Shown here piece by piece: positions 4,458 to 60,478 of a stretch of DNA of 64,000 nucleotides. Position 1 is the stretch's first letter. The number at the start of each line of letters is the position of its first letter. Where the stretch lies: positions 32,001-96,000 of IMG/VR virus record IMGVR_UViG_3300034103_001027; one strand, written 5' to 3'. Source of the DNA: a virus. The notes under the pieces are model-generated. The model did not search any database. It was not told the DNA's origin and saw only the letters and a program-made list of their open reading frames with translations. The position numbers were made by a program, and so were the translations under genes.

Positions 4458-4942
4458 TTACTCGCTCCGCTATTGCAACTTCCCATTTTTGTTCTAGCCT
4501 TATTAATGGCTCTTTTGACGATTAACTCCGACACGAATCTGGAGAATGGTAGCCCTCTTTGGTGCGATGCCTCCTTTAGTCGATGGCAAATGTAATCCAT
4601 CTGTTTTTCGCACATATCAGGCCCCCACCTATTCATTTTAGCTTCGAGATCTTGGCATGGCTTGCATCCATGTTGGTTTGGGATAGGGAACCATGATATG
4701 ATCTTCTTGAGTTCCGTTCCAACCATGCCAGTTTCGCTGGTTGCCATGCTGCTGGTTGACATGCTATTAATCGGTTCGCTTGGTAGGTCCGGGTACTCAT
4801 TCTTAATGTTGAGGTACTCGTCTGGCTCTATGTAGAAGAACTCGTCGTCAGGTACTGTCGATGACGATTGAAGTCTCTCTATGTATCCACTTGCCTTGCG
4901 GTCCTGTTTTGATGCAGCCAGTGACTTTCGGATCTTCATCAT
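4454..4942 (-). CDS. Cys-containing hypothetical protein, paralog of 815..1270
   Basis: GTELKKII...GCKPC...MNRWG...GLPF; start/stop overlaps with both neighbours. Confidence 0.65.
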   Translation of the reverse strand: MMKIRKSLAASKQDRKASGYIERLQSSSTVPDDEFFYIEPDEYLNIKNEYPDLPSEPINSMSTSSMATSETGMVGTELKKIISWFPIPNQHGCKPCQDLEAKMNRWGPDMCEKQMDYICHRLKEASHQRGLPFSRFVSELIVKRAINKARTKMGSCNSGASN

Positions 4943-5742
4943 GGAGGTAGCTCCTCGTCACATTCTAGGCAGGTTACGTAGAAGTATTTTAGACACCCAT
5001 CAAACATTGCGATGTAGTGTTCGGCTGTACCAGTCCCGCACCCAATAAAATCAAGCTCGACCCACATATCAAGAGTTCCGCCCGGAGGTATGGATATATT
5101 GGTGGAGTCTCTATTGAAGTTTATACCAGTTGGGTAGCCTCCAACGTAACCGTGAGACGCCGCAACCACATGGCCAAGCAAGCAATTTTGCTGCACTGGT
5201 GCAAACTCACAGTTGAAACTCGAAGGGTCAGACTCCCCTGCTCTACATGGCGGAGCACCTGCTTGGCAGTCCTCGCCATCTATTGGGTGTGTTGTCCATG
5301 TGCATAATCCATCGTTGAATATCGTCCAGGATATTCTGACTCTTGCTGGTATCTTATTACCATCACTATCTATAGTGGAGCAGGCTCTTTCGGGACTCAT
5401 TGCAGGTGGTGGATCATTTGAGACTCCTCTAGGTGCTCGACAGATTGAGTCAAAAATAGGTCCGCAGAATTCGTTAGGGAAGGCAGTATATCCATCCCAC
5501 GCAATGCAGCAATTACATGGCGCGGAACTAGAACTGGAACTAGAACTGGAGCTAGAACTGGAACTAGGGCTGGAACTAGGTCTGGAACTAGGGCTGGAAC
5601 TAGAACTGGAACTAGAACTAGAACTGGAACTGGAACTGGAACTAGAACTGGAACTAGAACTGGAACTGGAACTGGAACTGGAACTAGAGCTAGAACTGGA
5701 ACTGGAGCTAGAGCTACCGCAGCAGCAGAATCTTGTTGGCAT
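4939..5742 (-). CDS. Poly-serine, Cys-rich protein, probably virion-associated
   Basis: CCCG, then 41 consecutive Ser and a second Ser run, then a Cys-rich domain; same strand as the operon. Confidence 0.7.
   Translation of the reverse strand: MPTRFCCCGSSSSSSSSSSSSSSSSSSSSSSSSSSSSSSSSSSSSSSSSSPSSRPSSSPSSSSSSSSSSSSSSAPCNCCIAWDGYTAFPNEFCGPIFDSICRAPRGVSNDPPPAMSPERACSTIDSDGNKIPARVRISWTIFNDGLCTWTTHPIDGEDCQAGAPPCRAGESDPSSFNCEFAPVQQNCLLGHVVAASHGYVGGYPTGINFNRDSTNISIPPGGTLDMWVELDFIGCGTGTAEHYIAMFDGCLKYFYVTCLECDEELPP
5524..5715 (-). repeat. Hexamer low-complexity repeat (TCCAGT/TCTAGT) encoding poly-Ser
   Basis: Visible gaacta/gaactg iterations on the plus strand. Confidence 0.95.
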
Positions 5743-7256: not shown

Positions 7257-7616
7257 TTAAGACTTCCACATCAGGAAGATTACGCAGTCGGCATTGACTG
7301 TACCACTGAGCTTGATCTTTGCGTGGCCAACTGCAGCCACTTCAGCGATCTCGCTTGATGTAAGCGACACTGCACCAGCGGCTGCTACGTTTTTAGCTGC
7401 TGATAGCAGGTCTGTCTCTGGGAATGTTGCCGATGCGGACTGTGGAGGGTCACCAGCGACTGCTGTTATCTGAATTGCCTTTCCAATGACTGGGGAGCTT
7501 GTCGGTATGAGGAATGTCCCAAAGGCTCCGCTGCGCAGGTCGATTCTCCCGCTGACGGACTCTCCGTTCTTAAATGAAATGGGGATCACTTGATGCGTTC
7601 TTTCTGTGTACGACAT
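7257..7616 (-). CDS. Hypothetical structural protein
   Basis: Probable start MSYTERTHQ just after the upstream stop. Confidence 0.55.
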   Translation of the reverse strand: MSYTERTHQVIPISFKNGESVSGRIDLRSGAFGTFLIPTSSPVIGKAIQITAVAGDPPQSASATFPETDLLSAAKNVAAAGAVSLTSSEIAEVAAVGHAKIKLSGTVNADCVIFLMWKS

Positions 7617-7617
7617 G

Positions 7618-9423
7618 TTAGTCTTCCGTTGGTAAGTTGGTTGCGTCTGATTTGTATATTTGCCAAGATGGAGATCCAGCATCCATCGCATGGTCTCCTA
7701 CCCGCCTGTCCCTGCTCATTGCTTCTCTTAGGCTCTTCTTGGCCATCTCTGAAGCAATGACGGATTTAGCGTGATCGTGATTCTTGGTGTACTGGTAGAA
7801 TGCCTCGTCCTCGAGTGCTTCGAGCATTACGCTAGCTTCAATGTCGATTGGCGAGCTTATCGCGTATCCTCTAGCTGATATTGTCTCTGGCAACGCCTCT
7901 GAGAGTGTAAGTGTCGTTGCTGTGGGTGCTGCGATAATGAATGACTGGAAGTCCCAGTTGTCTGAGTCAAGGTCCGTTGGTGTTGTGGAGTTACTCGAGA
8001 CTCGAATGATGCACCCAACAAGTCTCTTGTGAAACGCAGCGCCAGCACTCGTGACTGTATCTGAGTTTGCCGATCCAGCTAGATTGCTTCCTGTGACGGA
8101 ATGTATGGATGGCGTTATCGGGAGGACTGATGCGCTAACCTCGATTGTTTCCTCTTCGGTCGGCGCTGGATGCAGGATGAATTCGCACCCGCCAAACTTG
8201 CCGCCATGGTTTTGCCATGAGAAGCATCTTGAGTGTCCATTGATCGTGCTGGAGAATGTTGATGCATTGAACTCAGCGAATGGAATTGATGTCAGCGGTC
8301 TGTTGTTCGTTATATTGTGCGCGTACTCTATTTTTAGCACTTCCCTGCCGAATGTGTATGCGCGGCGTCTCCAGGTGGCATCGCCTTCGTAGTCCGACAT
8401 CATGGCGCTGTCTGGCTCGAGCGTTGCTGTCGTGTTGGACAGTCTTCTGTGTACCTTGTAGAAGTTGCCTCCGATAAGGATTTCACCCATTGCAGCGTCT
8501 GCTGGCCAGTTGTCTCCGTCGGTGATTGTGACTAGTCGTTCGCTTGCGCCGCCAGTGCGGTCGTATTCGATAGTCATGGACCTTTCGGCTGACGTTGTGA
8601 ATCGCGTTTGTGCCTTGTAGTAGTTCCATCCGTGCTTTGTGTGTAGAGACCTAATTGCAGACTGGATAGCCTTGACGATTCTTGCGTTGTGTCTCTCTGA
8701 CGGGGTGCCACCCGTCCTGAGGGTCATTGAGTGAACCATGTCTTGCAGTGTCAGCACTTCATGTCCTGCTAATCCGCCCCATGATGGCATCCATGGATTG
8801 CTTGGAGGCGATATGGTGCTTGTGCTTTGCTTAAATCGCCAGTCCTTGCTTGCGATCTGCTTTTTGGCTAGCGTGACTGTTGAGGCAGTGCCCTGCTTCG
8901 TGTAAGTGCCTAGCGGTGAGGCGACTGTTGGACCTAAGAAAAAAGTCAGGCCGTCCCATTCGATAACCCACCTATCAGTTCCATCTGGCACGTCCGAGCG
9001 AAACAGGACGCAATCCTTCGTTGCTACAGTCCATGCCCATAGCCGAGTATTCCCGCTGCCAGATACGGCAATCCCGATATCGGCTGTATATACGTCTGGA
9101 GTTACACCGCTGCCAGTCACTGCAAACCGATTGAATGAATCAATCATCGTTGCGGTGTCGTACTGCTCAGTAAGCGCGCCCTGCGCCAAGTCGATAACGA
9201 CATGGTTATTGTCTGAGGTAGTTGGATTGCTAGCACCTAGGAATACCCACCACTTAGTATATTCAGTGTCATCTAGCGTGATTGTGAATGTGCCTAGTTG
9301 CGATACGCTTTCCGTAGCAGCAATTCCGTAATCCGCATAGTGACTAAATGGAATCGAAGTATCGGCTGGAATAGCCCTGGCTGTGCTGCCTGTTGGTGCT
9401 GAGAATATGATAGTGTGAAGCAT
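7618..9423 (-). CDS. Putative head-tail adaptor-like protein with extra beta-rich domains
   Basis: AIQSAIRSL...GWNY and ILHPAP patterns typical of adaptor/tail-tubular proteins; position in the module. Confidence 0.45.
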   Translation of the reverse strand: MLHTIIFSAPTGSTARAIPADTSIPFSHYADYGIAATESVSQLGTFTITLDDTEYTKWWVFLGASNPTTSDNNHVVIDLAQGALTEQYDTATMIDSFNRFAVTGSGVTPDVYTADIGIAVSGSGNTRLWAWTVATKDCVLFRSDVPDGTDRWVIEWDGLTFFLGPTVASPLGTYTKQGTASTVTLAKKQIASKDWRFKQSTSTISPPSNPWMPSWGGLAGHEVLTLQDMVHSMTLRTGGTPSERHNARIVKAIQSAIRSLHTKHGWNYYKAQTRFTTSAERSMTIEYDRTGGASERLVTITDGDNWPADAAMGEILIGGNFYKVHRRLSNTTATLEPDSAMMSDYEGDATWRRRAYTFGREVLKIEYAHNITNNRPLTSIPFAEFNASTFSSTINGHSRCFSWQNHGGKFGGCEFILHPAPTEEETIEVSASVLPITPSIHSVTGSNLAGSANSDTVTSAGAAFHKRLVGCIIRVSSNSTTPTDLDSDNWDFQSFIIAAPTATTLTLSEALPETISARGYAISSPIDIEASVMLEALEDEAFYQYTKNHDHAKSVIASEMAKKSLREAMSRDRRVGDHAMDAGSPSWQIYKSDATNLPTED

Positions 9424-22122: not shown

Positions 22123-22294
22123 TTGTACTCTACTGGGGGATAGTGTCGCTTTGCCATCGCTCGGGTGGCTTTAATGCGATTTATTCCCCAAGTGGAGTCA
22201 GTGACTAGAAAGCTCCCGAATTGAGTATCAAAAAAATAAAAAAATCGAAAAAGGAATAATGTGTAGGCAATGGTTCTTTTTAAGAAAGGTGTTT

Positions 22295-22507
22295 ATGGAC
22301 AGTATTCCTCCAACGGAAGAGTGGCTATCAGCTAAGGAAGTGGCGGCAATCTTTGGCGTCAGCGTGTCTCGGGTTTATTTTGCGCATAGTACTGGACGCA
22401 GGAATTCGTCTGGATCGCTAGTGCGGCTGACTATGTTTCGGACTCTGTCCGGACTGGCTACGACCAGGAAGCTCGTGGATGAGTTCCTGCTGAAGCTGAA
22501 TGGTTAG
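22295..22507 (+). CDS. Excisionase-like winged HTH protein (DUF1580-like)
   Basis: LSAKEVAAIFGVSVSRVY...G...VRL...TT...EFL; GAAAGGTG RBS. Confidence 0.6.
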   Translation: MDSIPPTEEWLSAKEVAAIFGVSVSRVYFAHSTGRRNSSGSLVRLTMFRTLSGLATTRKLVDEFLLKLNG

Positions 22508-22694
22508 AAGCCCATGCACTGGAAATTGTATCTTATGTGATACAATATGCATTGGCTGTGGCAGGACTCTCGATGAGATATTTCGATGGCGCGCTATGCG
22601 CGACTGCGAGAAGCTCGAGGTTTTGAGGCGGACGGGAGCACTGGACTGTGAGTCCACTTCCAGCGATGAATCAGCCGAAGGTGATCCGCGCTAA
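22500..22694 (+). CDS. DUF1289-like small Cys protein
   Basis: SPCTGNC...CIGCGRTLDEIFRW. Confidence 0.7.
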   Translation: MVRSPCTGNCILCDTICIGCGRTLDEIFRWRAMRDCEKLEVLRRTGALDCESTSSDESAEGDPR

Positions 22695-24021
22695 ATGGCT
22701 TCTTGAGGCTGAGTCTTGCCTTGTGTTTGCACTTGCCCCACAAGCTGCTGCCAATCATCTCGTGCATGATGTCTATCTGTCTCAGCCTGCGCTGCACATA
22801 GGATCGCTTGAGCATTGTCAGATTGGCCTTGACGCCTAGTTCCCTGGCCTTGATGGCTATGATCATGTCCTCGATTTGAGTGGTAGACAATCCGAGTTCG
22901 TACTTCATGACCCATATCTGACCGGCTTGAAGCAGTTGCTTCTTATCGACAGCCAGTCTCTTTTGGTGTTCGCTAATCTGTTCTATTTTGAATCCAGCGC
23001 GAGGGAGTCCATTTGGCCTTCCGTTTGCTTGGCACCATGCAGCAGTTTCCTTGTTTCGATTAGACTTCATCTGGCTTTCTAATTGTGCAATTGAAGCCAT
23101 CAGCGATATCCATTCCTTACCCTGCCCTGTGTCTGTCCTGATTCGCTCGCAGACGAAGTGAACGTAAGCGCCTTTTCGCTGTATCTCGGCTATTGTCTTC
23201 ATGGCGTCCAGGGTATTTCGCCACCCTCGATCCATTCGGTAGATAACGACGTCATCCCCTGGCTGCAGGTCGTTCATAAGCCGCTTACCGGCCTCTCGCT
23301 CCATAAATGGCACTGAGAAGGCGCTAATGGCAGGATCGGAGTAAACTGGCCCTACAGGGCACTGTAGCTTCTCTGCGAGGTCCTCTGCGTATTTGGCATT
23401 GGCAGTGCCTTGCCACTTCAGGCCGAGCCCTGAGACGTACTGTGGCTCTGTGGATACACGTTCGTACATGCGGATCGTGCCTGTTGGTCGCTCCGTTTTG
23501 ATCTTTTGAGGCAGGACGAATTCGCTATTCATCCATTTGACTTTTGGCTTCGTGTTTGACGATTGCGAGTTTTGAAGCCTCTTGATTAGTAGTGCTTCTC
23601 TAATTCGCTCGCTTGTCACATCAGAAGCGTATTGAGCCATAGCGGCTAGGATATTCGCCTGTAGCTTCCCGGAGGCTGTGGTCGTGTTGATCTGGTTGTT
23701 GATGAAATGCACGAAGATACCCTTCTCCTCGAAGAAGTGCATCAAGTTGCAGAAGTCTCTCAGGTTTCTGCATAGTCGGTCGATCTGCAAGCATATAACG
23801 TGGTCGCCCGGCTTTACCTGCTCGATGATGCGACCACCACCTGGGCGGCCCGCAAAGGATTTGCTCCATGCGCTGACGCCAGCATCAGTAACCACAACTT
23901 GCTCAGCCTCTGGTATAACCGAAGTGGCATAATTGGTTGTCCTGACCATTTGGTCTGGTATACTGATGTCAGAGGCTTTGGAGTCCTTATGGCTAACGCG
24001 ATTGTAAAGGAATGCTTTCAT
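22594..24021 (-). CDS. Serine recombinase with two tandem resolvase-type catalytic domains
   Basis: Domain 1: YNRVS...GVSA...RPG...DRLCR...SERI. Domain 2: YERVST...ISA...DRGWR...SNRNK. Confidence 0.85.
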   Translation of the reverse strand: MKAFLYNRVSHKDSKASDISIPDQMVRTTNYATSVIPEAEQVVVTDAGVSAWSKSFAGRPGGGRIIEQVKPGDHVICLQIDRLCRNLRDFCNLMHFFEEKGIFVHFINNQINTTTASGKLQANILAAMAQYASDVTSERIREALLIKRLQNSQSSNTKPKVKWMNSEFVLPQKIKTERPTGTIRMYERVSTEPQYVSGLGLKWQGTANAKYAEDLAEKLQCPVGPVYSDPAISAFSVPFMEREAGKRLMNDLQPGDDVVIYRMDRGWRNTLDAMKTIAEIQRKGAYVHFVCERIRTDTGQGKEWISLMASIAQLESQMKSNRNKETAAWCQANGRPNGLPRAGFKIEQISEHQKRLAVDKKQLLQAGQIWVMKYELGLSTTQIEDMIIAIKARELGVKANLTMLKRSYVQRRLRQIDIMHEMIGSSLWGKCKHKARLSLKKPFSADHLRLIHRWKWTHSPVLPSASKPRASRSRA

Positions 24022-24709
24022 GGGTAAACGTCGAAAAGGAGGGATGTTTTCACCGAGTCCCTATGTGACTGGTGCGAAGCAAATGTCAACTGGAGAGGAA
24101 TTGCAAGCGATTGCCGTATACCAGAAGACGAGAGATGGTAGTTTAGCGGAATCGGTACTTAAGTCAAGGGCCTCTTGGGTGCAGAGTATCATTGCTAATA
24201 TACCCATGCCCAGCTTTGCTGACATGGATACGGTGTTTTCTGATGTCATGCTGGCCGTCTATGAGTCGCTCTCGAACTACGATGAATCCAAGGCGGCCCT
24301 GTCCACATACCTCTGGAGGGTTATCTATAATTCTGCACTGACCAGCGCCAAAGAGCAGGATACAAATGCTGAGCAGTTTACCCCTGAACTGATCGTCGAT
24401 GAGGCCGTTGATTACTCTGAGTGCATCGAAAACGCCCGAAAGGTCATCTTGAATACACCCCCCGAGATGCTCAATGAGCGATCCAGAAAGGTTGCGCACA
24501 TGATGCTCAAGGGTTACTCCGTTCAGGAGATAGCAAGCACCTTAGACGTGACCAAGTCCGTTGCCGGTGAGATAATCACCAGCATACGTCGATACATCGC
24601 TTGGTGCATGGTCAAGCAGAATCTATCTGCAGAGCCGGTCATTAGCGACAGCGATCTTATGGATCTGGCTGAGGAGCATGAGCGGGCCAATGTGACCAAA
24701 TGGCGGTAG
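24020..24709 (+). CDS. Sigma-70/ECF-like RNA polymerase sigma factor (start uncertain)
   Basis: Region 2-like YDESKAALSTYLWRVI; region 4 HTH GYSVQEIASTLDVT. Confidence 0.75.
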   Translation: MGKRRKGGMFSPSPYVTGAKQMSTGEELQAIAVYQKTRDGSLAESVLKSRASWVQSIIANIPMPSFADMDTVFSDVMLAVYESLSNYDESKAALSTYLWRVIYNSALTSAKEQDTNAEQFTPELIVDEAVDYSECIENARKVILNTPPEMLNERSRKVAHMMLKGYSVQEIASTLDVTKSVAGEIITSIRRYIAWCMVKQNLSAEPVISDSDLMDLAEEHERANVTKWR

Positions 24710-26381: not shown

Positions 26382-26801
26382 TTAAGCCTCCTTGTGTGTT
26401 CTTCGGAACGGAAGTGGTGGAGCCTTTCGGAATCTCCAGCCTGACCTGAACAGTATTGAATTGCCGCCCGGTGCATCTACAGCCGTGAAGTCGTTTTCCG
26501 CCAGGAATGTTACGGACTGCGTGTCGCTGACATCAACCACTGCCTCTAGTGACATTGATGGCCATGTCATCAGCCGTATATGTTCGATTAAGCTGGTTCC
26601 TATACCGAGCCTTCGCTTCCTATGATCCACTGCTACGTCGAGTATCTGATGTACGCACATATCCGATACAGAGCAAAGGTATCCTACTATATTTCCGCCA
26701 AGCTCTGCAACTAAGCAGATCGCTCCTGGGTCGCTTATATGGCACGCCACTAAGTCATGACTGCCACCTATAGCATCGATGAATTGCAAGTCAATTCGCA
26801 T
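26382..26801 (-). CDS. GNAT acetyltransferase (RimI-like)
   Basis: IVGY...VAVD...RRLGIGTSL (acetyl-CoA binding motif A). Confidence 0.75.
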   Translation of the reverse strand: MRIDLQFIDAIGGSHDLVACHISDPGAICLVAELGGNIVGYLCSVSDMCVHQILDVAVDHRKRRLGIGTSLIEHIRLMTWPSMSLEAVVDVSDTQSVTFLAENDFTAVDAPGGNSILFRSGWRFRKAPPLPFRRTHKEA

Positions 26802-39758: not shown

Positions 39759-40145
39759 ATGGAAGTTGATCCTAAGCAAATCGCACTGATATCCAGCGCC
39801 AAGGCGTGGATTGCCAGTAGGATACGCGATGTCAGATTGGCTCGTGGTATGACACAGAAAGAACTCAGTAATCGCATGGCGATAACCTATACCAGAGTTT
39901 CTGACCTGGAAAACAACATCTCGGACTACAAAATCAGCTCACTCCTTAGGGCCGCATGGGGGCTTGGAGTCTCGCTTGAGGACTTGATGAGCGGCTGCCC
40001 TGGATGGAAGTCCAAGGCAGCCATCGAAAAAACAATGATTATTGTTGAACACCAGAGAGCCCATCACGTTCTAGTCTCTTCTGGTGTTTCGGCTCGAGAG
40101 GCTGACCGCATTTGCGCCAGACTCCTCGATGAATCCCGGTCATAA
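39759..40145 (+). CDS. XRE-family HTH transcriptional regulator
   Basis: IRDVRLARGMTQKELS...VSDLEN...LGVSLEDL. Confidence 0.85.
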   Translation: MEVDPKQIALISSAKAWIASRIRDVRLARGMTQKELSNRMAITYTRVSDLENNISDYKISSLLRAAWGLGVSLEDLMSGCPGWKSKAAIEKTMIIVEHQRAHHVLVSSGVSAREADRICARLLDESRS

Positions 40146-48517: not shown

Positions 48518-49477
48518 CTAAACATTAAAGAACTTTCGCAATCTCTCGTGACCGTATTGACCTTTCGTCTTCTCAATTATCTGCTTGACCGTGTACTCCT
48601 TTCTCTCATGCCCTGCGGACTCGACGAACATTTGGCAGCCCATCGAGCAGGCCCCGGTAACTGACCTGTACAACTGAACGCACTTCTCGAACGGCAGCTT
48701 GTCGGTTAGCTTCAGGCCCTTGAACTCACTGGTGTCCCTCGGTGATAACTTGTAGGCCAGGGACTCACGCGCTTTCTCGATGGTCTCTCCGTGAGAATAG
48801 TTCTCCCCGTCTGTTACGAGATACGAAACCTTGCCGTCGATCTGGCGTAGTTTGCGAATACCAAACTTCTCGCTTATGACTTCCGAGAAGACACCATCAA
48901 CCTTGATGTACTTGCCGTTCTGCCAAGACAGGAGTCGAACATCGCTTCCTATATGGCGACTGTCGCCCTGCAGGTGTAGGTCTCCACCAACCGTAGGATT
49001 AAATCCTTCCGGCAGGCTGGTAACACTCCGCAGATATAGGTTTCCACCAACCGTAGGATTGAATCCTTCCGGCAGGCTGATAACCCTCGACAGGTATAGG
49101 TCTCCACCAACCGTAGGATTAAATCCTTCCGGCAGGCTGGTAACGCTGTGCAGGTAAAGGCTTCTACAAACCGTAGGATTAAATCCTTCCGGCAGGCTGG
49201 TAACACTCCGCAGGTCGAGGTATCCACCAACCGTAGGATTGAATCCTTCCGGCAGGCTGGTAACACTCCGCAGGTCGAGGTCTCCACCAACCGTAGGATT
49301 GAATCCTTCCGGCAGGCTGGTAACACTCGACAGGTATAGGTCTCCACCAACCGTAGGATTAAATCCTTCCGGCAGGCTGGTAACACTCCGCAGGTCGAGG
49401 TCTCCACCAATGGGCTGCCTCCCGTCGAACTGCTCGTCAGTAATATTGAATTTCTTGCAAAACTCTTTTCGATTCAT
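48518..49477 (-). CDS. Leucine-rich-repeat-like protein (20-aa repeats)
   Basis: GGDLxLxSVTSLPEGFNPTV repeated about 7 times. Confidence 0.8.
   Translation of the reverse strand: MNRKEFCKKFNITDEQFDGRQPIGGDLDLRSVTSLPEGFNPTVGGDLYLSSVTSLPEGFNPTVGGDLDLRSVTSLPEGFNPTVGGYLDLRSVTSLPEGFNPTVCRSLYLHSVTSLPEGFNPTVGGDLYLSRVISLPEGFNPTVGGNLYLRSVTSLPEGFNPTVGGDLHLQGDSRHIGSDVRLLSWQNGKYIKVDGVFSEVISEKFGIRKLRQIDGKVSYLVTDGENYSHGETIEKARESLAYKLSPRDTSEFKGLKLTDKLPFEKCVQLYRSVTGACSMGCQMFVESAGHERKEYTVKQIIEKTKGQYGHERLRKFFNV
48971..49410 (-). repeat. 60-bp coding tandem repeat, about 7.3 units
   Basis: Units align in register on consecutive 60-nt lines. Confidence 0.95.
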
Positions 49478-50704: not shown

Positions 50705-53700
50705 GGCTCTCCTCCGTTCTCTGTATTGGCTCGACCTTAGTGACACGCAGTCCACCGCAGATTGTCTTGGCAGTCACCTGATGTGAAGGAGCCCTGCCTT
50801 TCGAAAATGGATTGGACTTCCACTGAACCTTGATGCAATCTTCATCGTGCGATATCCGCACAGTCGTCCCAAGGCATGCGCCGGGGTACTCATTGCCACC
50901 GCTGACAATGCCGTTCTCTATGGCGCGAGCAATCCTTAGTAACTGCTCGGCACTCAACTTAATACCGTTCATTACATCCTCCTAATCGAACCAAAAGTAA
51001 AGCCTAATTGCAGACACAATGAACTCATCTGCTTGATTGGCGAACCTACTGAAGTCAGCCAGAGTTTCTTTACTGTACTCCCCGACATACTCCAGTCCCT
51101 CGATAGTCACCCTGTAGTCGTCTCTTAGGTGACTGATGGCGTAGCCATGGGCCGTAAACACTGGGTTGCTCTCCATAAATTTAAGCATCTCCGAGGCAGT
51201 TGGCGCACTGTTCTGGTGATCCTTTCCTTCAATGAACTTCTCATCGAACAACTTCTTCAATGTCTCTAGGGTCATACCCCTGAAACTCTCGCAGTCGCCG
51301 ACCTCATCTCGGCCAAAGATAATCTGATTCCGTCGCTTGTAATCTTTATTTAACATCAGTATTCTCCTTAAATATCTAATCCACCACGCTGAAATAAAAC
51401 CACCTTCTTGGGATGCTCGATCTCGTGCGAGCTTTTCATTCTTCTGCCCCTGCACTTTCAATGAACTTCTCCCTTGTCAACACCTGAATCACTACAGACA
51501 TATCCGAAGCCAGCCCCCTGGGTGATATCGGGCCAGTTGGCACCTCCTTCAGAGTGCAGTTCGGCCCGTATGGTAGGATGGTCAGTTGACCAGCCCAGCT
51601 TGACCCAAAATCATGTGCTTCCAGTAGAACCCAGCCATCAGGCCGGTACTCATTCAGTTGCACCCCAAGACGCCGTGACAACTCTGGCGGCTCAATGTCT
51701 TGCTTGCCGCAGTATGTTGCGATAAACGTCGAACGGTCCACGTATTCCATCATTCTTCTCCTGTTTCTTGTGGTACATTCGCCTTACATGGCAAGTTGTT
51801 GATACAAAAATCATACGCATCAGAAAATCTGTCGTCGCTTCGCACCATGGAATCAATCTTATTGACCCACAGAACAGTGACCGGATGTTCCCTCAGCGCA
51901 TCGCCATAGACACCATGGCCCTTTAGGTCCGATAGCGCCCTGGAGAATCCATTAGCTACCGCCATAAGATTGCAGGCGTCTTGGACCGATAGGGCGTCAT
52001 CGCATAGTTCAGGTATTGGTTTCATTGACATGAGTCCTTTCTAAAGTTGACTTCATTTCGAGGATACAGAACATGTATTCATCATGGGCAACTGGCCGCC
52101 AGTTCTCCACGAGATCCTTCAAGACCATTGGCCCTGTGCAGAATCTCCCTTCATGGAAGTAGATGATTTTCTTTGTTTTCTCGTGGACATACGAAGGACA
52201 GAATCCCCAGTATTTCCAGCACCCAGTAATTGTGTAGCCATACCTCGCCATGTCTGGGATCTTGCGGAACCCGTCAATAGCATCCGCCTTGTAGTACCTG
52301 CGACGGTCAGCCATCACATCCATCCTTTCTCTTTGAGGTGCTGCTTAATATCCCTATAGGTGCAGTTGCTTAGTCCTGGCCAGAAGACGCTAAACATAGT
52401 TCCGTACTCAAGCTCTGCCTTGCACGCACCTCCTCGCCACCACCCGCAGTAGCCGCAACTACTGAACTTAATTCCTGCATACCGTGCGTACTGCACCATA
52501 ATGCAGCCGCACGTATCGCCTGCCAAATTCTCACCGAATCTAACCTGTCGGTCGTCCGGCTGCTGCTGAATAAACTCGATCATGTCTTCCCTGGTTACTA
52601 CTTTCATCACTGCTCTCCCTTCGTCTCTTTAGAGACGGCATTAGCTTTCTCTTGAACGTACGACATGGCGTCACACCGAATCGTCGGAACCCCACGAATG
52701 ATTGCCATTGCTCCTCCACCGAACTCATCAGTTCGCATTTTGCTACATGTGTATGCCCACGAGCAGAAGAATGGGTCATCGATCTCAAGCTCCTCAATTA
52801 ACTGTCGAGCAATCGCGTCGACTGTAATCGGACAGAACGACTCGTCTCCGATGAACAGCACTCCATCACCCTTGATCTCAATCTCCACTCCATACTCAAG
52901 ATAAGACTCGTATTCGTCCTCACTTTCTCCGTATTCTAGACATACAGATTTAGCCGCCTCGATCTTCGCTCTCTCAATGATCTCCTGAACGCGAGGCATC
53001 TTGTCTTTTGGTATCTCCATGAATGAACTGCTTTGTGAATAGTTATTGGCCATTTCATCTCTCCGTTTGTAAGGGTTAATTCCGCCACGAACCATCTCTA
53101 AAAAGACGGTTATATGGCAAGTCACCAGCGTGCCCACTCAGGCAACGCTTCGTAAGTTTCCTGCGCCAACTCTTCATATCGCATCGCCCATGGAATGTCG
53201 CCGCCAGTCCTCTTGGTTCTCGCCTCAAGGGACAGCGAAGCGTATTGGCGTAGTTGTTTAACTGCATCCATGGCTTCCTTTCCTTTGCCAGGGAACATGA
53301 CCCTAGCTTCAGTCATGGGCCGATCCCACATAGACCGATAGAACCCACGCAAGTCCTCCTCGTCCATCCCGTCCAAGTTCGGGCTGCCAACCCAATTCCT
53401 GGACTTCTTCCTCGGTGTCGCCTTAAGTTCCTTAAGGTTCTCCAGTGCCCACTTTCGCATCGCAACAGCTTCGCTTCCTGCGCTATTGTGTCCGCCCCCA
53501 TTATTCCAGGCGTCGTATAGTTCATCAGGAAGTTCCAAGCCGAACCGGCAGTAAACGTCATCCGGCACTGTCTCTGGTAATCCATCTGATCCATACGACC
53601 CAGATAGCGTCGTTTGGTAGTCACCCAGCTTCGCGCTGCCCATCATGAAGTGCCCGAATTGCGACATCTTCACGAAGCGAACTACACCCTTGAGCTTTCT

Positions 53701-54680
53701 GTACTTTTCGCTCTCGCCTTGCATGAGAATCAAGAATTCTCCGTGAGCGAACTGCTCTCCGCTGCTAGTATATCCTCGCTTTGTTGTTGTTACGAACATT
53801 AGTTGCCCCTCCAGTCGAGGTCTTGTGTTATGCAGATAGAACGGCGTCGCGTTAAGGCGAAACCAGCGGTCAGGCAGTCGTTCACATCAGCGGAAGTGTA
53901 CTCGTTCCAGGTGGTAATGTATTCTTCGCACAGTTCCAGGAACTTCTTTTCTGCGGACTCATAGTCGTCGAATAAGTAAGCCTCTTCTAGTAAATTGCGG
54001 TCGATGATAACTACTAGTGTCTTATTCATGATTAACCTTTCTGCCGTCTCGAAAAAGACGGCCCGTGATGATAGTCTATACTTCCCCTACGATCTCAAGA
54101 TCAGGGAAGCTTGGGATCTCTAGGGACCGAATAAATTCCTCAATTGTCGTACTTGGATCGCGTGCTTCAAGTTGATCCAATGGGATCAAGATACGACCTG
54201 ATTGAGTGGCGTTGAACATTGCAATACCATTTGGCGTGTAGTATTCAACGTGCCCATCAAGCTCGTACCTGGTGTCCCGTTGAATCAAGATGGAGGCTCC
54301 AATTTCAATACAATACGCAACAGTGTCGTTGAAATCACTTTGAGTGCATTCGTAGAAGTACCCGAAACCATCATCACCTAAGTCGCCTTCAAGGCACGGC
54401 GACAGCAAGCACTCGATCTTCTCTAATTGCTCCTGCGTTACCTTGCCGCCAATGTAAACCGATCCACTAAACCTGTCAGCCATGTTACACCTCCTCCCTG
54501 TCGTATGTATCACAAACCCCAAAAGCTTCTGCCGCATCGTCTGGATTCTGCTTAAGGTACCTAACCCTCTGCTGTAATGCGTCAATTAGCACGCCAACCG
54601 GAACATCCCTCGGTTCTTCGCAGTCGTGATTGACTGTAAACGCCACGTCAAACATGGTGTTGTATCTCATCGCTCTCTCC

Positions 54681-55649
54681 TTAGTACTTGGATTTCTCTT
54701 GCCAAACAAACTTAACGCCTTCCGGTAGGTCGGCTGTCTGAAACTCTGCCACAATTGGAGCCATTGCATCGAACTGCTCCTTCGTTATCCTCCTATCGGT
54801 GCTAGTCCAATTGACCGTCACCTCATTAGTGTGGTTGTAGTAAATGTAGTTGATGCCGCTTCCGAACTTGTCAAGCATGAACAACTCAATATCACGGTCG
54901 ATACGAAGCTTCTTGGACTTGTTATCAAAGTCGCAGAGAATCTCAAGCCGCTTCTGCGCCTTAAAGCGAGCTTTCTTTTCGGCGTCTCTTGCGGCGATAG
55001 ATTCAGGTGAGTAGTACCCAGTTCTCCTTCTCTCAGCCACCAATTCCCTCATCTCTTTCGAGACGGGCTTGTAGTGCTTTCTTGTGGCTTTAGACTCGAA
55101 CTTCTTGCCGGTCCACGCCTCAAGCTGGGCAATAGCGGCATCTGCCTCTTGCTTCCATCTCTCGACAATACCCGTGTCCTCGAGGAGTATTTGAATCTCC
55201 TCATCGGATCGGCACTCAATGAATGCAGGAAGCTCAGCATCGGTCAGCCTGAGCGACTCCTTGAAGATGCGCAGGCACTCCTCCTTGCTCTTTGCCCAGC
55301 TTCCACTGCCACCGTGATACTCGACCCAGGGGGCACCGAGATACCCGGCCAGCCAGTACCACGCATTGCCTCCATGCATTGGGACGCCTTCCCAATCACA
55401 CAGGTGAAGGTCAACGAACGGCTTGAGTTCTGGCCTGACCGAGAGTATCTCCTCGTGGCAACAGCCGCCACCAGCATCGACCCATCGACCTCGACCGTCC
55501 TTCTCTTTGATGTTTGCTGTTACAGAGAAGTCCTCATGGCCATTCTTACAGTCATCGTCCAGGGTTATTCGAATGTCGAACAACCGGCCACCCTTCCTCG
55601 CCACGATACTGTGCCGCAGGGTGTTAGTCGTTTCAGTTGTTTCAGTCAT
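54681..55649 (-). CDS. Hypothetical phage protein
   Basis: 322 aa; DDCKNGHEDFS, GGCCHEEI, LHLCD..GVPMH. Confidence 0.65.
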   Translation of the reverse strand: MTETTETTNTLRHSIVARKGGRLFDIRITLDDDCKNGHEDFSVTANIKEKDGRGRWVDAGGGCCHEEILSVRPELKPFVDLHLCDWEGVPMHGGNAWYWLAGYLGAPWVEYHGGSGSWAKSKEECLRIFKESLRLTDAELPAFIECRSDEEIQILLEDTGIVERWKQEADAAIAQLEAWTGKKFESKATRKHYKPVSKEMRELVAERRRTGYYSPESIAARDAEKKARFKAQKRLEILCDFDNKSKKLRIDRDIELFMLDKFGSGINYIYYNHTNEVTVNWTSTDRRITKEQFDAMAPIVAEFQTADLPEGVKFVWQEKSKY

Positions 55650-56147
55650 TTCATCTCTCCTTCGTCTCTTTAGAGACGGTTAGTGCGTCGTGACATTGCA
55701 TTCGTACTTGCCTATCAAGTGCGATAATGCTTGGTTGGCATTGGGCCAGCTACACCAGCCCATGCCGTTCTTGTAAACAGAGCCGGACATGAAGATGTGA
55801 TACACATCTGGTCCGACTCGAACTGTATAGATCAAGGTCATGCCATTGCCCCTTTCGTCTCTTTAGAGACGGTTAGTACATTTGGTCAGCCAATTGACAT
55901 CGCAGTTCCTGAGCCAGGTCCAGGCAGTTTGAGCTTCTGTACACGCCGACATTCGCCCAGTACTGATGCAAGTACGCACCGCCACTAAAAGAGTTATCGC
56001 CGGTCTGGTAATCCCAAGAGCCGTCCTTGTCAGCTCCAACGGTTAGCTGTATCCCTGGTTTGTCGTCACCCTCGAAGGCAAGATAGTCATCCTCGATGTA
56101 CTTCTTGATATGGCGACACAGCTCGTAGAGTTCTTTGATTGTTGGTT

Positions 56148-56309
56148 TCATTTGCTTTTCCTTAGTGAGTAGACTGATTCTCCAGGTGGCCAGATGCATG
56201 GCACGAGATACAGCGTGACGCCGCACTTCGGGCACGTAATAGTCTCTGGTTCGGGCCAGCCAGGGACATTGATCATTTCTTTGCAGGCACCGCATGATTG
56301 ACTAGTCAT
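56148..56309 (-). CDS. 53-aa Zn-ribbon protein (not in the ORF track)
   Basis: MTSQSCGACKE...CPKCG; ATGA overlap with the next gene. Confidence 0.55.
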   Translation of the reverse strand: MTSQSCGACKEMINVPGWPEPETITCPKCGVTLYLVPCIWPPGESVYSLRKSK

Positions 56310-57344
56310 GCGACGCCTCTGTCTCTCTTGCGACGGTACGCTTACGCCTTATCCGGGTCACTAGGAACGTACATTCCCAGCTCTCCTCGTCACCGCTAAT
56401 AAGCGCCGCTTCCCACATACAAGGGCGACACCATAGCCTCGTTCGTTCGTCAGCCTCCCTGATAGCGGCCTGGCACATATTCTCAAGCCAACCCTCGCTA
56501 CGGTCGTACAGGTCAGACGGAAGCTTCACTTTGTATTTATCCTTAACAGTGCTCATGCTGTTCTCCATGAAGTTGTTGGCGCTTCTTCGATGGCGTAACG
56601 TGTGCCATCGTCAATCAGAACTAGAGCCTCTCCAGGGAAGAGATCAGGCTTGCCGATGCAGATTGAGCCATCGGCGATCTTGGAATTTACAAGGGACATA
56701 ATGTCCCCGAGGGTCGCGTCGTCCTCGTAGTCGCTGTAGTACACACAGGCTTTCGAGAAGGACACGAAGTGATTAGTGCCGTTGGTCATCAATCATCTCC
56801 TCATTAAGGGTTATATGGCAAGTCCTATCCGGAATAATAGCGACAGAGACTTGAGGTCTGTCGCCATTCATGTTGATACCTACGACCCATCGGTGTGACT
56901 GGCACCCCGAGAGGAGGAGGGTAAGTAGCAGTAATCCTTTACGCATGATAATCCTTTCTATTTGATCCATGAAAACTCATAGGGCCATTGCGACGGACTG
57001 CATGAATCGTGAATGCGTTGGTACGACCGAATAAGATCCCTATGACTCTCTGGCAGGCCATATATGGTAACCAGTCGATCCCAGGTGTGATTCTCGAAAT
57101 CCACGTTGTACTCATCGTCTCCGATGAGGCATCCCGCCGCACACTTGAGGGTCTTACCGTCTCCTTCGAGATGATAGCGACATATAGCACCGGCTACACA
57201 TCGCTCGCCCTGAGCGAGAAGATGCGCCTCGATCTGTGCCTTAACCTCTTCCCGTGTTGCAAGGTGCAATGTCTTTAGCGTGATCATGATTAACCTTTCT
57301 TGTTGATGATTGCCGTCTCTAAAAAGACGGCCTCTTGCTTATAC

Positions 57345-57384
57345 AAAAACTTGCCATACAACGCAAGAGTGTTATATGGCAAGT
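57345..57384 (-). terminator. Terminator-like hairpin built from two inverted ACTTGCCATA motifs
   Basis: ACTTGCCATATAAC-8 nt-GTTGTATGGCAAGT-TTTT. Confidence 0.6.
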
Positions 57385-59604
57385 CGATTCCAAAAATTAC
57401 AGCAGGAACTCAGTCGTAGTCCCGCATACGATCCACTTGCCAACCTTGTAGTCCAGCGTGCCGCATGGATGGCGATGCGGGACAAAGACCACAAGGTCTA
57501 GGTACTGCAAGGCCAGGAACATCGGGCTATCCTTGGGCATGTCGACTGGAATTGATTCATGCGCTGGCCGCCAAGCGCCCTTCCACACTAGGCTTCGGTA
57601 TGTATCAATAATCTCTTGCCTGGACAATCTAGCCCCGGTCTTTTCAAGGACGACTCTAATCGCCTCTCTAACCCATTTAGCGCGAGACCGACCGGCAGCC
57701 GCTCGATCTACTGGCTCTATGACGCAATTTACGTGCAGGTTTCTTTTGCTGGACCCAGCCCAATACCCGCATCCATCCCTGGACGCAGTGAAAAGCTCTC
57801 CATGCAGCCAGAACTTGTCGCCTGGCGCGAGCAATCCAAACCGATAAACTGGCTTTATTTTTTTCGTTCTCATGTTTCCCTTTCACTCGTCTTTTTAGAG
57901 ACGGTTGATTGTTGTTGCGCATTTTCCCTAAAGCAAATCCTGGATCTCGTCAGCTAGGCGATACGTGTACTTCAGTTCCTCGTCAGATGCCCACTGCATG
58001 ATATATGCAGCGGTAACCCCTTTCATACTAATGCCACCACCGTGGGCCATCAAAAACTCGTCCACAATAGCCCTCATGGCTTCATTGAGATGCACCCACT
58101 GTCCGCCCACTGGAAGGTTCAGTGCTTCCGTCTCCTTGGCGCTAAACAGATCGCAGGAGGCGATGTCGCCCCAGCCGTCTGCATTAGACCAAAACAACAT
58201 TACGTTGTTTTCCATGCTTCGAATCACATAGATCATGGTTTCCCCTTCGTCTCTAAAAAGACGGTTAAGTGTTATTACGGATTGTCTCTAGGTTAAGACA
58301 TGGATTTCGAGCGATTGTGGACAGAGCTGCCGTCCGGGTAGATATTGAGCCCAACGTAAAACGCCGGGAGCACTCGCCGATCCTCTCCTGCGGCCTCTGC
58401 GGCCAATCCCCTGGCAATGTCATCCAGGATACTGTACTGGCAGCCATCTTTGCAGATATTGGCGACAGTGACATTCCTTGGGTCAAAGCCTTCAGCCCGC
58501 AGCAGACCAACGACACTTCGCACGGGGGTTCTACTTAGCACCTCAGGCAGGCGGTACACGAAGCTCGTGCTGTTGACTGTAATCTCAACTCTCATTTACT
58601 TCCCCTTCGTCTCTAAAAAGATGACTCTTAGCCCAGACGGACCTTCCGCCCGGCTCTCTTGAACACGCCGCCAACGGGTCGCTGCCGACCCAATTCGGGG
58701 CAGGCCGTAATGACCCAGCGCCCGTTTGGTTGCAACACCACGCGCCCAGGCCCAGCCGGAACCGGCCTTTTCAGGCTAGCATGTTCCATTGCCACTAGGC
58801 CCAACGCCTTCCTGGGTGGCATCCCATAGTGGGCACACATTGCCCGTATGGATACCCAGTGCCCATAGTATGGACAATTCATAGTAACTTTCCTTATACC
58901 AGGAGTCCCAAAACGAAACAAGCCAACAGCCCCGATAAGGCAATTGGCTAGCGTCGTCTCGAAAAAGACGGACCAAGGTCGGCGCGCACCCCGATGATAG
59001 TCCCCTTATGATAGTCCGCATCTTGCCGATTCACCCGTCCCCAAGGCAGCCGCTGACCATCGGGCCAACCGCTGCTGTGTAGGACAGGTGAATCGTTTGA
59101 AACAACCGTCTCAAAAAAGACGGGTCAATCCCCAATCGGAAGTCTGGTAGTGCCGAATTCGGCGAATCCAACAAACGTATAGTTCGCCAAGGCTTTCACG
59201 CTATCGCTCCACTTCCGGCCATCCACGCCCAGGTCGTTCAGAATGTCCAAGAACACTTCGGCAGTCGCGCCGTAGTGACGATGCGTCTCAGCGTATGCCT
59301 CCCAGTAGAGGTTGCCAATCGCATCAAAGCCGACTAGCACTTCAACTGGGCGGATATAATCCGGGTGTTCACACAGATACTTAGCAGCCATTTCGATTCC
59401 CCTTTGTTTCTAACCGTCTCAAAAAAGACGGCTTGCACCAATTACGGATTTTCTCCGTGGTGCTTTTGGTCCAATTGAGACAATGGAAACAAGTGAAACT
59501 TGCTTCCCCTACGCAACAAACGTAGGCTAACGAATCCCGTAGGATACATTAGCCTACGCCGCCCCCCTAGTTTGAGGGGCGGAGAAGGTTATATGGCAAG
59601 TCGA

Positions 59605-60375: not shown

Positions 60376-60478
60376 TGCATTCTCCTTCGTCTCTTAAGAG
60401 ACGACTAAAAACGGTTCGGCAGTATAGCGAAGGTGCTTGTCTGCTCTCGATTCACTCGACTTTGCAAGAGAATCGAAA

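What the first reader, a model, noticed from the sequence alone, without database searches (positions are those of the whole stretch)
22594..24021. One polypeptide with two apparently intact serine-recombinase catalytic domains
Seen: both halves keep YxRVS (catalytic Ser), the SA/R loop, DRxxR and the E-helix. No Zn-ribbon of a large serine integrase is evident. Known: serine recombinases act as dimers on a site and as synaptic tetramers. Inference: a covalent pseudo-heterodimer could act on asymmetric sites. The neighbouring excisionase-like HTH (22295) is a possible directionality factor.
Basis: partly seen in the sequence, partly recalled or inferred. Interest (0 to 1): 0.72.

Follow-up and report, generated by a model that had tools for sequence, protein, structure and literature searches.

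The report
Two-headed serine recombinase of uncultured phages
One phage gene encodes a DNA cut-and-rejoin enzyme (serine recombinase) with two complete, apparently active catalytic heads on one chain; it is the founding example here of a large, apparently undescribed family that sits just upstream of the capsid genes in a whole lineage of uncultured phages.

Summary
Window 22594-24021 (-) is one uninterrupted 475-codon gene. It has two PF00239 domains (101 and 77.8 bits; cut-off 23.3), a disordered ~30-residue linker and a ~110-residue helical C-terminal domain. There is no zinc ribbon.

It is not a fusion artefact. The identical protein occurs on 6 contigs. A profile search listed 150 cluster representatives (E <= 2e-58), nearly all spanning both domains. 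Among 175 relatives, both catalytic sets are essentially invariant:
- Domain 1: Arg8 134/134, Ser10 138/138, Arg82 and Arg85 167/167.
- Domain 2: Arg188 174/174, Ser190 173/174, Arg265 175/175.

The window lies in a 106.8-kb phage genome with no tyrosine integrase. In the 36 relatives' loci with DNA, wherever the contig continues, the gene lies just upstream of the scaffold-like and capsid genes. It has co-diverged with the capsid gene (r = 0.85). No cultured phage or plasmid record carries the tandem form, and a literature search found no description.

Most likely reading: both heads cut, so two chains supply the four serines of a synaptic complex. The enzyme probably acts on a site present once per genome (integration, or cyclisation/multimer resolution). 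The geometry, the DNA site and the biological role were not shown. The scan noted this same stretch twice more, on the same genome only.

The parts
22594..24021 (-). Tandem serine recombinase gene (475 aa plus stop)
   Evidence: Open frame with no stops; PF00239 twice; family of more than 150 two-domain relatives.
23677..24021 (-). Catalytic core 1 (residues 1-115), with Y6, R8, S10, D46, D81, R82, R85
   Evidence: PF00239 101 bits. pLDDT is about 90. In the family, R8 is kept in 134/134, S10 in 138/138, and R82 and R85 in 167/167.
23572..23676 (-). E-helix 1 (residues 116-150), the best conserved segment of the protein
   Evidence: AF2 helix at 116-150. Mean pairwise identity is 0.64, against 0.48-0.55 for the cores. 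S133, D134, S137, R139, E142 and A143 are invariant in A1.
23479..23571 (-). Inter-domain linker (residues 151-181): basic, predicted disordered, with a conserved K-x-K-x-x-W-x-x-S-E motif
   Evidence: pLDDT 47-57. W163 is nearly invariant. It has 6 K/R against 2 D/E. The family spacing from A143 to Y186 is 36-82 residues, median 46.
23128..23478 (-). Catalytic core 2 (residues 182-298), with Y186, R188, S190, D229, D264, R265, R268
   Evidence: PF00239 77.8 bits. In the family, R188 is kept in 174/174, S190 in 173/174, R265 in 175/175 and R268 in 167/175.
23023..23127 (-). E-helix 2 (residues 299-333)
   Evidence: AF2 helix at 299-332. E315 and S316 are conserved, and R322 is kept in 144 of 171.
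22687..23022 (-). C-terminal domain (residues 334-445): a beta-hairpin plus four helices, HTH-like, possibly a reduced recombinase domain of the large-serine-recombinase type
   Evidence: The AF2 model of residues 333-475 has pLDDT 88 and pTM 0.79. Fold matches are weak: HTH DNA-binding domains up to Z 4.3, and Bxb1-type recombinase domains at Z 3.7-3.8. hhalign against large serine recombinases gives probability 18% and E 1.3e-3, collinear with the start of their recombinase domain. Atlas structure rows are also consistent with this. No Pfam or NCBIfam hit.
22597..22686 (-). Poorly conserved, disordered C-terminal tail (residues 446-475)
   Evidence: pLDDT 42-43; mean pairwise identity 0.23.
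22525..22546 (.). Perfect palindrome ATTGTATC-N6-GATACAAT, 47 bp past the recombinase stop, between two convergent genes. It is a candidate protein-binding site or terminator.
   Evidence: It is one of only 9 such palindromes (8-bp arms, spacer up to 8) in 64 kb, and the only one between 21 and 26 kb. It is not conserved in sequence in relatives, and two relatives have odd-spaced palindromes there.
22259..22507 (+). Small winged-HTH gene (82 aa as the longest ORF), convergent with the recombinase gene
   Evidence: HTH_17 E 0.0037 and Rv2175c_wHTH E 5e-4, both below threshold. A 40%-identical homologue sits at the same place in L005. HTH_17-like genes sit at the same place in other loci.
24020..24709 (+). 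ECF-type sigma-factor-like gene, divergent from the recombinase gene; the two start codons overlap by 2 nt
   Evidence: Sigma70_r2 E 3.5e-7; TIGR02937 E 3.8e-10. The same divergent neighbour occurs in L004, L005 and L009, with a weaker match in L006.

Best explanation
This is a genuine, selected serine site-specific recombinase in which one polypeptide carries two catalytically competent protomers. Its layout is core 1 plus E-helix 1, a flexible basic linker of about 30 residues, core 2 plus E-helix 2, and a single helical DNA-binding-type C-terminal domain. Strand exchange by serine recombinases needs four nucleophilic serines, one per DNA strand, within a tetramer of catalytic domains. I therefore infer that two chains, not four, build the synaptic complex and that both heads cut. 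Only one head carries a DNA-binding domain, so the DNA contacts of the two heads must differ: either an asymmetric site, or one head working on DNA held by the partner chain. The gene is a vertically inherited core gene of a lineage of uncultured tailed phages, placed between the replication genes and the scaffold and capsid genes. The phage has no other site-specific recombinase and no pair of repeated sites. The enzyme therefore most likely acts on a site present once per genome. That would mean integration and excision with the small HTH neighbour as helper, or cyclisation/multimer resolution of the replicating genome. Shown here: the architecture, the conservation of both active sites, family size, synteny, co-divergence, and the absence of a Zn ribbon and of a second recombinase. 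Inferred: catalysis by both heads, two chains per synapse, one site per genome, and the biological role.
For: Architecture and intact motifs. Not an artefact: the identical 475-aa protein is on 6 contigs from several sources; 33 full-length homologues at 34-69% identity; and 150 listed cluster representatives, nearly all spanning both domains. Ten distant members each give two PF00239 stretches. Selection on both active sites across 175 sequences, down to about 25% identity: R8 134/134, S10 138/138, R82 and R85 167/167, R188 174/174, S190 173/174, R265 175/175. E-helix 1 is the most conserved segment. Linker length is constrained to 36-82 residues, median 46. The two heads and four single-head proteins form one clade against 10 large-serine-recombinase cores, which points to an old internal duplication. 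Phage context: a 106,833-bp virus record with a 126-bp end overlap; head, PrimPol, PhoH, helicase and sigma genes nearby. No PF00589 integrase in this genome, nor in four relatives that are 100% complete, two of them with direct terminal repeats. In the 36 relatives' loci the order is recombinase, then a scaffold-like gene, then the capsid gene, wherever the contig continues. Recombinase and capsid identities correlate at r = 0.85; in a Mantel test 0 of 2000 permutations reached this value. No long inverted or direct repeat pair was found in the genome apart from tandem arrays, short hairpins and one 20-bp pair of palindromes noted under Noticed in passing. Background on subunit rotation and on 'cutting' versus 'rotating' pairs: PMC2724282, PMC11607074, PMC4058570.
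Against: There is no biochemical or read-level evidence of recombination. No recombination site was identified. The full-length AlphaFold2 model has pTM 0.47, so it does not fix how the two heads sit. D81 of head 1 is C, E, S or H in about 20% of relatives. That residue is not strictly essential in resolvases (from memory), but its variability leaves room for a weaker head 1. The start codon has no Shine-Dalgarno sequence and overlaps the divergent sigma gene's start, and a public gene call starts at Met25. No prophage copy was found in about 185,000 species genomes, which weakens the integrase reading, though only four short patterns from the close subfamily were used. An XRE-type repressor-like gene is the only other hint of a temperate lifestyle.
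Confidence: 0.6

Rival explanations
1. Only head 2 with the C-terminal domain is the working recombinase, and it assembles as a normal four-chain tetramer. Head 1 would be a regulatory or scaffolding module, for example an auto-inhibitor, a synapsis helper like accessory-site resolvase subunits, or a docking platform.
For: Head 2 plus the C-terminal domain alone resembles short viral catalytic-plus-recombinase-domain proteins. Single-head relatives exist (P0035-P0037, P0039). Head 1 has no DNA-binding domain of its own and departs from the usual S-T-x-x-Q motif (S-H-K-D-S). D81 is variable. Earlier notes of this scan describe serine-less resolvase-domain partners next to integrases.
Against: A non-catalytic module should lose catalytic residues in some lineages, as those serine-less partners did. 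Here R8, S10, R82 and R85 are kept in every one of 134-167 sequences, down to about 25% identity, and E-helix 1 is the best conserved part.
Confidence: 0.15
2. It is a DNA invertase or resolvase acting between two sites within the phage genome, that is, a switch such as tail-fibre or promoter inversion, or shuffling of the palindrome-bounded early gene cassettes.
For: PHROG 125 'DNA invertase' matches. About 20 short palindromes of the CGTCTC-loop-GAGACG type punctuate the early region (earlier notes e1-6040729 and e1-6040730). A palindrome lies just past the gene.
Against: No pair of similar sites of 20-30 bp, in either orientation, brackets any segment. Near-identical relatives differ by indels, not by inversions, around the gene. 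There is no HTH_7 or Fis-enhancer-type layout. The early palindromes have 6-7-bp arms and sit in a stop-hairpin-RBS grammar typical of RNA elements.
Confidence: 0.07
3. It is not a recombinase in function. The two serine heads would make a site-specific double-strand break and stay covalently attached, for genome-end formation, protein-primed or protected ends, or attack on host DNA. This would be linked to the head-assembly genes downstream.
For: The position directly upstream of the scaffold and capsid genes is kept in the 36 loci, and the gene has co-diverged with the capsid gene. There is one DNA-binding domain per two active sites. No partner site was found.
Against: All residues needed for religation chemistry are the same as those for cleavage, so nothing separates this from recombination. 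Both E-helices that build the rotating interface are conserved. No serine-recombinase-derived enzyme of this kind is known to me. Two relatives assemble with direct terminal repeats, like ordinary headful or DTR phages.
Confidence: 0.08
4. It is an artefact: two adjacent resolvase genes fused by a sequencing or assembly error.
For: None found.
Against: The same 475-aa sequence is on 6 contigs from NCBI, JGI, ENA, Logan and MetaClust. The open frame is kept in 36 independent loci and in more than 150 cluster representatives.
Confidence: 0.01

Closest known systems
Small serine recombinases: gamma-delta/Tn3 resolvase, Gin/Hin invertases
   Same: Each head has the PF00239 core with the Y-x-R-V-S nucleophile motif, D-R-x-x-R, and a ~35-residue E-helix. 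Best sequence matches to solved structures are gamma-delta resolvase (E 6.9e-9) and Gin (E 3e-7). Foldseek TM-score normalised by target is 0.7-0.8.
   Different: Those proteins have one head plus a C-terminal HTH_7 in about 185 aa and work as four chains per synapse. Here there are two heads per chain, no HTH_7, one unrelated C-terminal domain, and no res/gix/enhancer-like site layout.
Large serine recombinases (phage integrases Bxb1, PhiC31, TP901-1, A118; XisF, CcrB)
   Same: Similar overall length and phage-encoded. The top Foldseek hit is Bxb1, 9iu2_A. The nearest non-family sequence hits carry PF07508 and PF13408. The C-terminal domain starts with a G-R-P-x-G-x-P-x-x-G-F stretch collinear with the start of their recombinase domain, with weak fold matches.
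   Different: There is no zinc-ribbon or coiled-coil domain, which in those enzymes sets att-site choice and directionality. PF07508 is not detected. A second complete catalytic domain stands at the N-terminus. NCBIfam scores are 65-77 bits against cut-offs of 375-900.
IS607-family serine transposases
   Same: They are a precedent for a serine recombinase whose DNA binding and catalysis act on different duplexes, and whose stable pair is the 'rotating' rather than the 'cutting' pair (PMC4058570, PMC6188088). One possible geometry for the tethered heads is analogous to this.
   Different: IS607 TnpA has one catalytic domain with an N-terminal MerR-like HTH. No such domain is present here, and there is no sequence affinity beyond PF00239.
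Serine-less resolvase-domain partners next to integrases
   Same: They carry an extra copy of the serine-recombinase catalytic domain associated with a working recombinase.
   Different: Those are separate genes that have lost the nucleophile. Here the extra copy is fused and keeps every catalytic residue.

Membership tests
Serine recombinase superfamily (PF00239 catalytic domain) | HMM match above the gathering score | tested here: met
   Met twice: 101 and 77.8 bits against a cut-off of 23.3; whole protein E 4.6e-51.
Serine recombinase superfamily (PF00239 catalytic domain) | Nucleophile Ser with the Arg/Asp catalytic set (gamma-delta numbering R8, S10, D67, R68, R71) | tested here: met
   Present in both heads and essentially invariant in 175 relatives.
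Serine recombinase superfamily (PF00239 catalytic domain) | Long E-helix after the core | tested here: met
   AF2 helices at 116-150 and 299-332.
Serine recombinase superfamily (PF00239 catalytic domain) | Conservative recombination through 5'-phosphoserine intermediates | not testable with these tools
   Needs biochemistry.
Small resolvase/invertase subfamily | One catalytic domain followed by a C-terminal HTH_7-type domain, about 180-200 aa | tested here: not met
   475 aa with two catalytic domains; Pfam reports no HTH_7 at E up to 1 or for the C-terminal 168 aa.
Large serine recombinases (serine integrases) | Recombinase domain PF07508 after the E-helix | tested here: inconclusive
   No Pfam hit. 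There are weak collinear signals: hhalign probability 18%, VIA Z 3.7-3.8, and Atlas structure rows.
Large serine recombinases (serine integrases) | Zinc-ribbon domain PF13408 with an embedded coiled coil | tested here: not met
   No PF13408 hit. The tail is only ~140 aa and lacks Cys pairs, and only 1 of 175 family tails has two CxxC.
IS607-family serine transposases | N-terminal MerR-like HTH before the catalytic domain | tested here: not met
   The protein starts directly with strand 1 of catalytic core 1, and there is no HTH hit.
Excisionase / HTH_17 family (for the 82-aa neighbour) | PF12728 match above the gathering score | tested here: not met
   17.9 bits against a cut-off of 27. The positional counterpart in L003 passes at 28.4 bits.

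The most novel reading that the evidence does not exclude
The tandem enzyme is a new mechanistic class of serine recombinase. Two chains would form the whole four-head swivel. The tether would join the two heads that rotate together, or would limit rotation to one half-turn. The pair of heads without a DNA-binding domain would capture a second duplex with little sequence specificity, IS607-like, or with the small HTH neighbour serving as its detached DNA-binding module. The phage lineage would use this as a housekeeping genome-processing step (cyclisation, monomerisation or integration) coupled to the switch to head assembly.
Probability: 0.2. Interest if true: 0.85.

Novelty: new variant of a known kind. 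Interest (0 to 1): 0.7.

Why it matters
Serine recombinases are understood as four separate subunits that swivel in pairs, and every studied member has one catalytic domain per chain. A natural, strongly selected family with two active heads on one chain would be a ready-made test of that mechanism. It would show which pair can be tethered, whether rotation is limited by the tether, and how a site is read with one DNA-binding domain per two active sites. It would also be a natural template for single-chain, asymmetric-site recombinases, which genome engineers now build by hand. For phage biology, it marks a large uncultured lineage (genomes of about 58-107 kb) in which this enzyme is a core gene next to the capsid module, with no other site-specific recombinase. 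That hints at an unrecognised step in the life cycle of these phages.

Tried and rejected
- **Complex prediction.** Head 1 (residues 1-152) against head 2 (residues 180-336), each with an 86-row alignment, scored 0.09 against a mark of 0.32. This gives no support and is not evidence either way.
- **Read-level evidence.** No reads could be laid, so rearrangement junctions were not tested.
- **Own phage in other assemblies.** An exact 30-mer scan of IMG/VR found nothing.
- **Broad-alignment scan.** A3 was too diverse to give patterns.
- **Cultured phages and plasmids.** tblastn found only single-domain matches below 40% identity. The 693-aa protein I first took for the terminase has no match in cultured phages.
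- **C-terminal domain.** Foldseek against the PDB found nothing at E <= 0.001. VIA-align wide gave a best Z of 4.3. Pfam and NCBIfam found nothing.
- **Recombination sites.** Palindromes downstream of the gene occur in some loci but are not conserved, and two have odd spacers, which a 2-bp crossover does not fit. No tRNA lies next to the gene in 35 loci. A 25-nt, 84% inverted pair at 22319/26240 was judged to be chance.
- **Literature.** Five searches found no description of natural tandem catalytic domains. The library lacks most subscription papers.
Full report
**1. The observation**

Window 22594-24021 (minus strand) is a single 475-codon open frame. Pfam's Resolvase model PF00239 matches it twice, at E 4.6e-51 for the whole protein. 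On the DNA, the two matches score 101 bits (model positions 1-140) and 77.8 bits (positions 3-144), with no stop in a 488-codon frame; the gathering cut-off is 23.3 bits.

The two halves are 31% identical to each other over 144 residues (E 1e-21). Each half has the nucleophile motif: Y6-N-R8-V-S10 in the first and Y186-E-R188-V-S190 in the second. Each also has the D-R-x-x-R box (D81-R82..R85 and D264-R265..R268) and an Arg in the E-helix (R139 and R322).

AlphaFold2 with a 28-row alignment gave mean pLDDT 79.9. It predicts two alpha/beta cores, each followed by a ~35-residue helix (116-150 and 299-332). Between them lies a disordered linker (151-181). After the second helix comes a beta-hairpin plus four-helix domain (344-440). 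pTM is only 0.47, so the relative placement of the domains is not predicted.

No PF07508 or PF13408 match was found, and the tail has no cysteine pairs.

**2. Not an artefact, and not a one-off**

The identical 475-aa sequence is recorded on 6 contigs from several archives. A word-indexed search found 33 full-length homologues at 34-69% identity, all carrying PF00239 only.

A profile search of 1.84 billion cluster representatives gave 367 hits at E <= 1e-30. The 150 listed (E <= 2e-58) are nearly all 440-590 aa and span both domains. The full 367 may include single-head cousins, so I count only the listed ones. Ten distant members each gave two PF00239 stretches and no other domain.

I aligned 175 family sequences to the profile. 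The catalytic residues are kept as follows:

| Head | Residue | Kept |
|---|---|---|
| 1 | R8 | 134/134 |
| 1 | S10 | 138/138 |
| 1 | R82 | 167/167 |
| 1 | R85 | 167/167 |
| 2 | R188 | 174/174 |
| 2 | S190 | 173/174 |
| 2 | R265 | 175/175 |
| 2 | R268 | 167/175 |

The missing head-1 positions are N-terminal truncations of gene calls. The only soft spot is D81, which is C, E, S or H in about a fifth of sequences.

Mean pairwise identity by region:

| Region | Identity |
|---|---|
| Core 1 | 0.48 |
| E-helix 1 | 0.64 |
| Linker | 0.23 |
| Core 2 | 0.55 |
| E-helix 2 | 0.47 |
| C-terminal domain | 0.31 |

The linker is variable in sequence but keeps a K-x-K-x-x-W-x-x-S-E motif. Its length is constrained: the spacing from A143 to Y186 is 36-82 residues, median 46. 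Only 1 of 175 tails has two CxxC pairs.

A caveat on the start codon: the public gene call for this gene (P0002) begins at Met25, and neither start has a Shine-Dalgarno sequence. Even so, the upstream 24 codons with the nucleophile motif are kept in frame in all relatives' loci not cut at a contig end.

**3. Origin of the two heads**

I built a tree of 45 head-1 sequences, 45 head-2 sequences and 14 other cores. Both heads group together with four single-head proteins (P0035-P0037, P0039). This group is separated by a long branch from 10 large-serine-recombinase cores. Head 2 is nearly monophyletic. This fits an old internal duplication that predates the family's spread. The outgroup was limited to what the searches had returned and included no small resolvases.

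**4. The C-terminal domain**

Modelled alone, residues 333-475 give pLDDT 88 and pTM 0.79. Foldseek finds nothing significant. VIA-align's best rows are HTH DNA-binding domains (sigma region 4, DeoR and DnaA DNA-binding domains; Z 4.1-4.3). The recombinase domains of Bxb1-type integrases follow at Z 3.7-3.8. All of these are below the level that would establish a shared fold.

Three further weak signals point the same way:
- The ESM Atlas structure search aligns residues 176-463 to proteins carrying PF00239 plus PF07508.
- hhalign aligns the G-R-P-x-G-x-P-x-x-G-F start of the domain to the start of the recombinase domain of large serine recombinases, at probability 18% and E 1.3e-3.
- Foldseek on the full model puts Bxb1 first.

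I read the domain as an HTH-like DNA binder, possibly a reduced recombinase domain. This is a lead, not a result.

**5. Context**

The window is bases 32001-96000 of a single 106,833-bp virus record. Positions 8-133 of the record repeat its last 126 bases, as in a closed assembly. Almost all genes are on the minus strand.

In transcription order, the gene's neighbours are:
- an SF2 helicase and a 5'-3' exonuclease;
- PrimPol and PhoH;
- an ECF-like sigma gene on the opposite strand, whose start overlaps the recombinase start by 2 nt;
- the recombinase;
- a small wHTH gene on the opposite strand;
- a scaffold-like protein and the major capsid protein.

The genome has no tyrosine integrase and no other PF00239 gene. 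Neither the recombinase's tandem form nor a large structural protein has a relative among about 50,000 cultured-phage records. No plasmid record carries the tandem form.

IMG/VR and metagenome scans returned 36 loci with tandem homologues. In the loci that extend far enough, the order is recombinase, then 0-3 small ORFs, then the scaffold-like gene, the capsid gene and further head genes.

Across 22 distinct phages, recombinase identity tracks capsid identity with r = 0.85. In a Mantel test, 0 of 2000 permutations reached this value. The gene is therefore a vertically inherited core gene rather than a swapped module.

Four relatives are 100% complete by CheckV, two of them with direct terminal repeats (67 kb). 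None has a tyrosine integrase.

**6. What it most likely does**

Strand exchange by serine recombinases uses four serines in a tetramer of catalytic domains. Half of the tetramer rotates against the other half (PMC2724282, PMC11607074). A module that only regulates or scaffolds would be free to lose its catalytic residues. Earlier notes of this scan (unchecked) describe separate, serine-less resolvase-domain genes next to integrases. Here neither head has lost its residues in any lineage sampled. I therefore infer that both heads cut and that two chains make a synapse.

With one DNA-binding-type domain per two heads, DNA recognition must be asymmetric. The tethered heads could be either of two pairs:
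- The 'cutting' pair on one duplex.
- The 'rotating' pair on two duplexes, as proposed for IS607 transposases (PMC4058570), in which case the tether is never strained.

A free linker of at least about 25 residues allows either geometry. I could not discriminate between them.

On the biological role, no pair of 20-30-bp similar sites brackets any segment of the genome. Near-identical relatives differ by indels, not by inversions, near the gene. This argues against an invertase. It fits a site that occurs once per genome.

Two roles fit such a site. One is integration and excision. This is supported only by the recurring HTH_17-like neighbour and an XRE repressor-like gene, and it is weakened by the lack of prophage copies in two limited scans. 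The other is cyclisation or multimer resolution of the replicating genome.

A perfect 8-bp-arm palindrome lies 47 bp past the stop, at 22525-22546. It is one of only 9 in 64 kb. It is a candidate site, but it is not conserved in relatives.

**7. Comparison and novelty**

Each head is a bona fide member of the PF00239 superfamily. The protein fails the defining features of the three described architectures:
- small resolvases and invertases (no HTH_7; two heads);
- large serine recombinases (no zinc ribbon or coiled coil; recombinase domain undetected);
- IS607 transposases (no N-terminal HTH).

Five full-text searches found no description of natural tandem catalytic domains. The library is incomplete, so this is absence of evidence only.

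I class it as a new variant of a known kind. It is a large, selected, phage-borne family of two-headed serine recombinases whose DNA site, geometry and role remain open.

**8. Limits**

Neither the nearest relatives' genomes nor any reads could be examined. The single complex prediction gave no verdict and is not used as evidence.

Noticed in passing
L009:5684-8118 (relative of this phage, metagenome contig Ga0163146_10001637): Eight 36-bp repeats (core motif GCAGTGAGCAATCGAACGAATGA) with ~36-bp unique spacers form a CRISPR-like array at 7572-8118. It lies directly after a 637-aa ORF that matches the RNA-guided TnpB family (NF040570, E 6.8e-12, below its cut-off). This looks like a compact phage-borne type V CRISPR-Cas. 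The sister contig L002 has fewer repeats.
   Followed up: partly
L009:4308-4487 and L002:741-920: A ~175-bp element has ~29-bp imperfect terminal inverted repeats and an internal promoter-like TTGACG-N17-TATAAC. It sits at different places and in opposite orientation in two phages that are otherwise 99.9% identical. In both it is flanked by AG on each side, and the empty site reads GTC-AG-AGAAC. That pattern fits either a 2-bp crossover core or a 2-bp target duplication. The tandem recombinase is the only recombinase seen on these partial contigs.
   Followed up: partly
window 801-63059 (18 sites, e.g. 27804, 30289, 31779, 38562, 53111, 56812, 57373, 59590): The motif TATATGGCAAG (CTTGCCATATA on the gene strand) occurs 18 times against about 1 expected, mostly upstream of minus-strand early and middle genes. 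None lies between 811 and 26736. The recombinase and the structural genes therefore lack this promoter-like element. The recombinase may be read from the site at 26736, through the antisense of the sigma gene.
   Followed up: partly
genome 8140-22314 (outside the window, before its start): A single 4724-codon open frame on the minus strand lies at the end of the structural gene block.
   Followed up: no
genome 7175-7194 and 8096-8115 (outside the window): Two copies of a 20-bp sequence (TTTTGACA-CGA-TGTCAAAA-T), in inverted orientation, lie 0.9 kb apart and flank an ORF-poor stretch. Each copy is itself a palindrome with an odd centre, so an operator or hairpin is more likely than a serine-recombinase crossover site.
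   Followed up: partly
window 52618-60390 (e.g. 52618, 55659, 57313, 57888, 59104): This is a family of short palindromes with CGTCTC/GAGACG arms and 4-6-nt loops between early genes, as earlier notes of the scan describe. I saw them in the repeat lists but did not test any link to the recombinase.
   Followed up: no
window 48977-49400 and 5524-5685: There are two in-frame tandem repeat arrays inside genes: a 60-bp period within the 319-aa ORF 48518-49477, and GAACTGGAACT-type repeats within the 267-aa ORF 4939-5742.
   Followed up: no
L053:8181-8746 versus L052: A 566-bp indel carries a ~190-aa ORF that by eye has cytosine-methyltransferase-like motifs (FSG, PPC). It sits immediately upstream of the tandem recombinase start in some 67-kb relatives and is absent in a 94-97% identical one.
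   Followed up: no
window 39759-40145 (+): A 128-aa XRE-type HTH protein on the opposite strand (PHROG 'transcriptional repressor/regulator', E about 1e-9) is the only repressor-like gene seen in the window.
   Followed up: no
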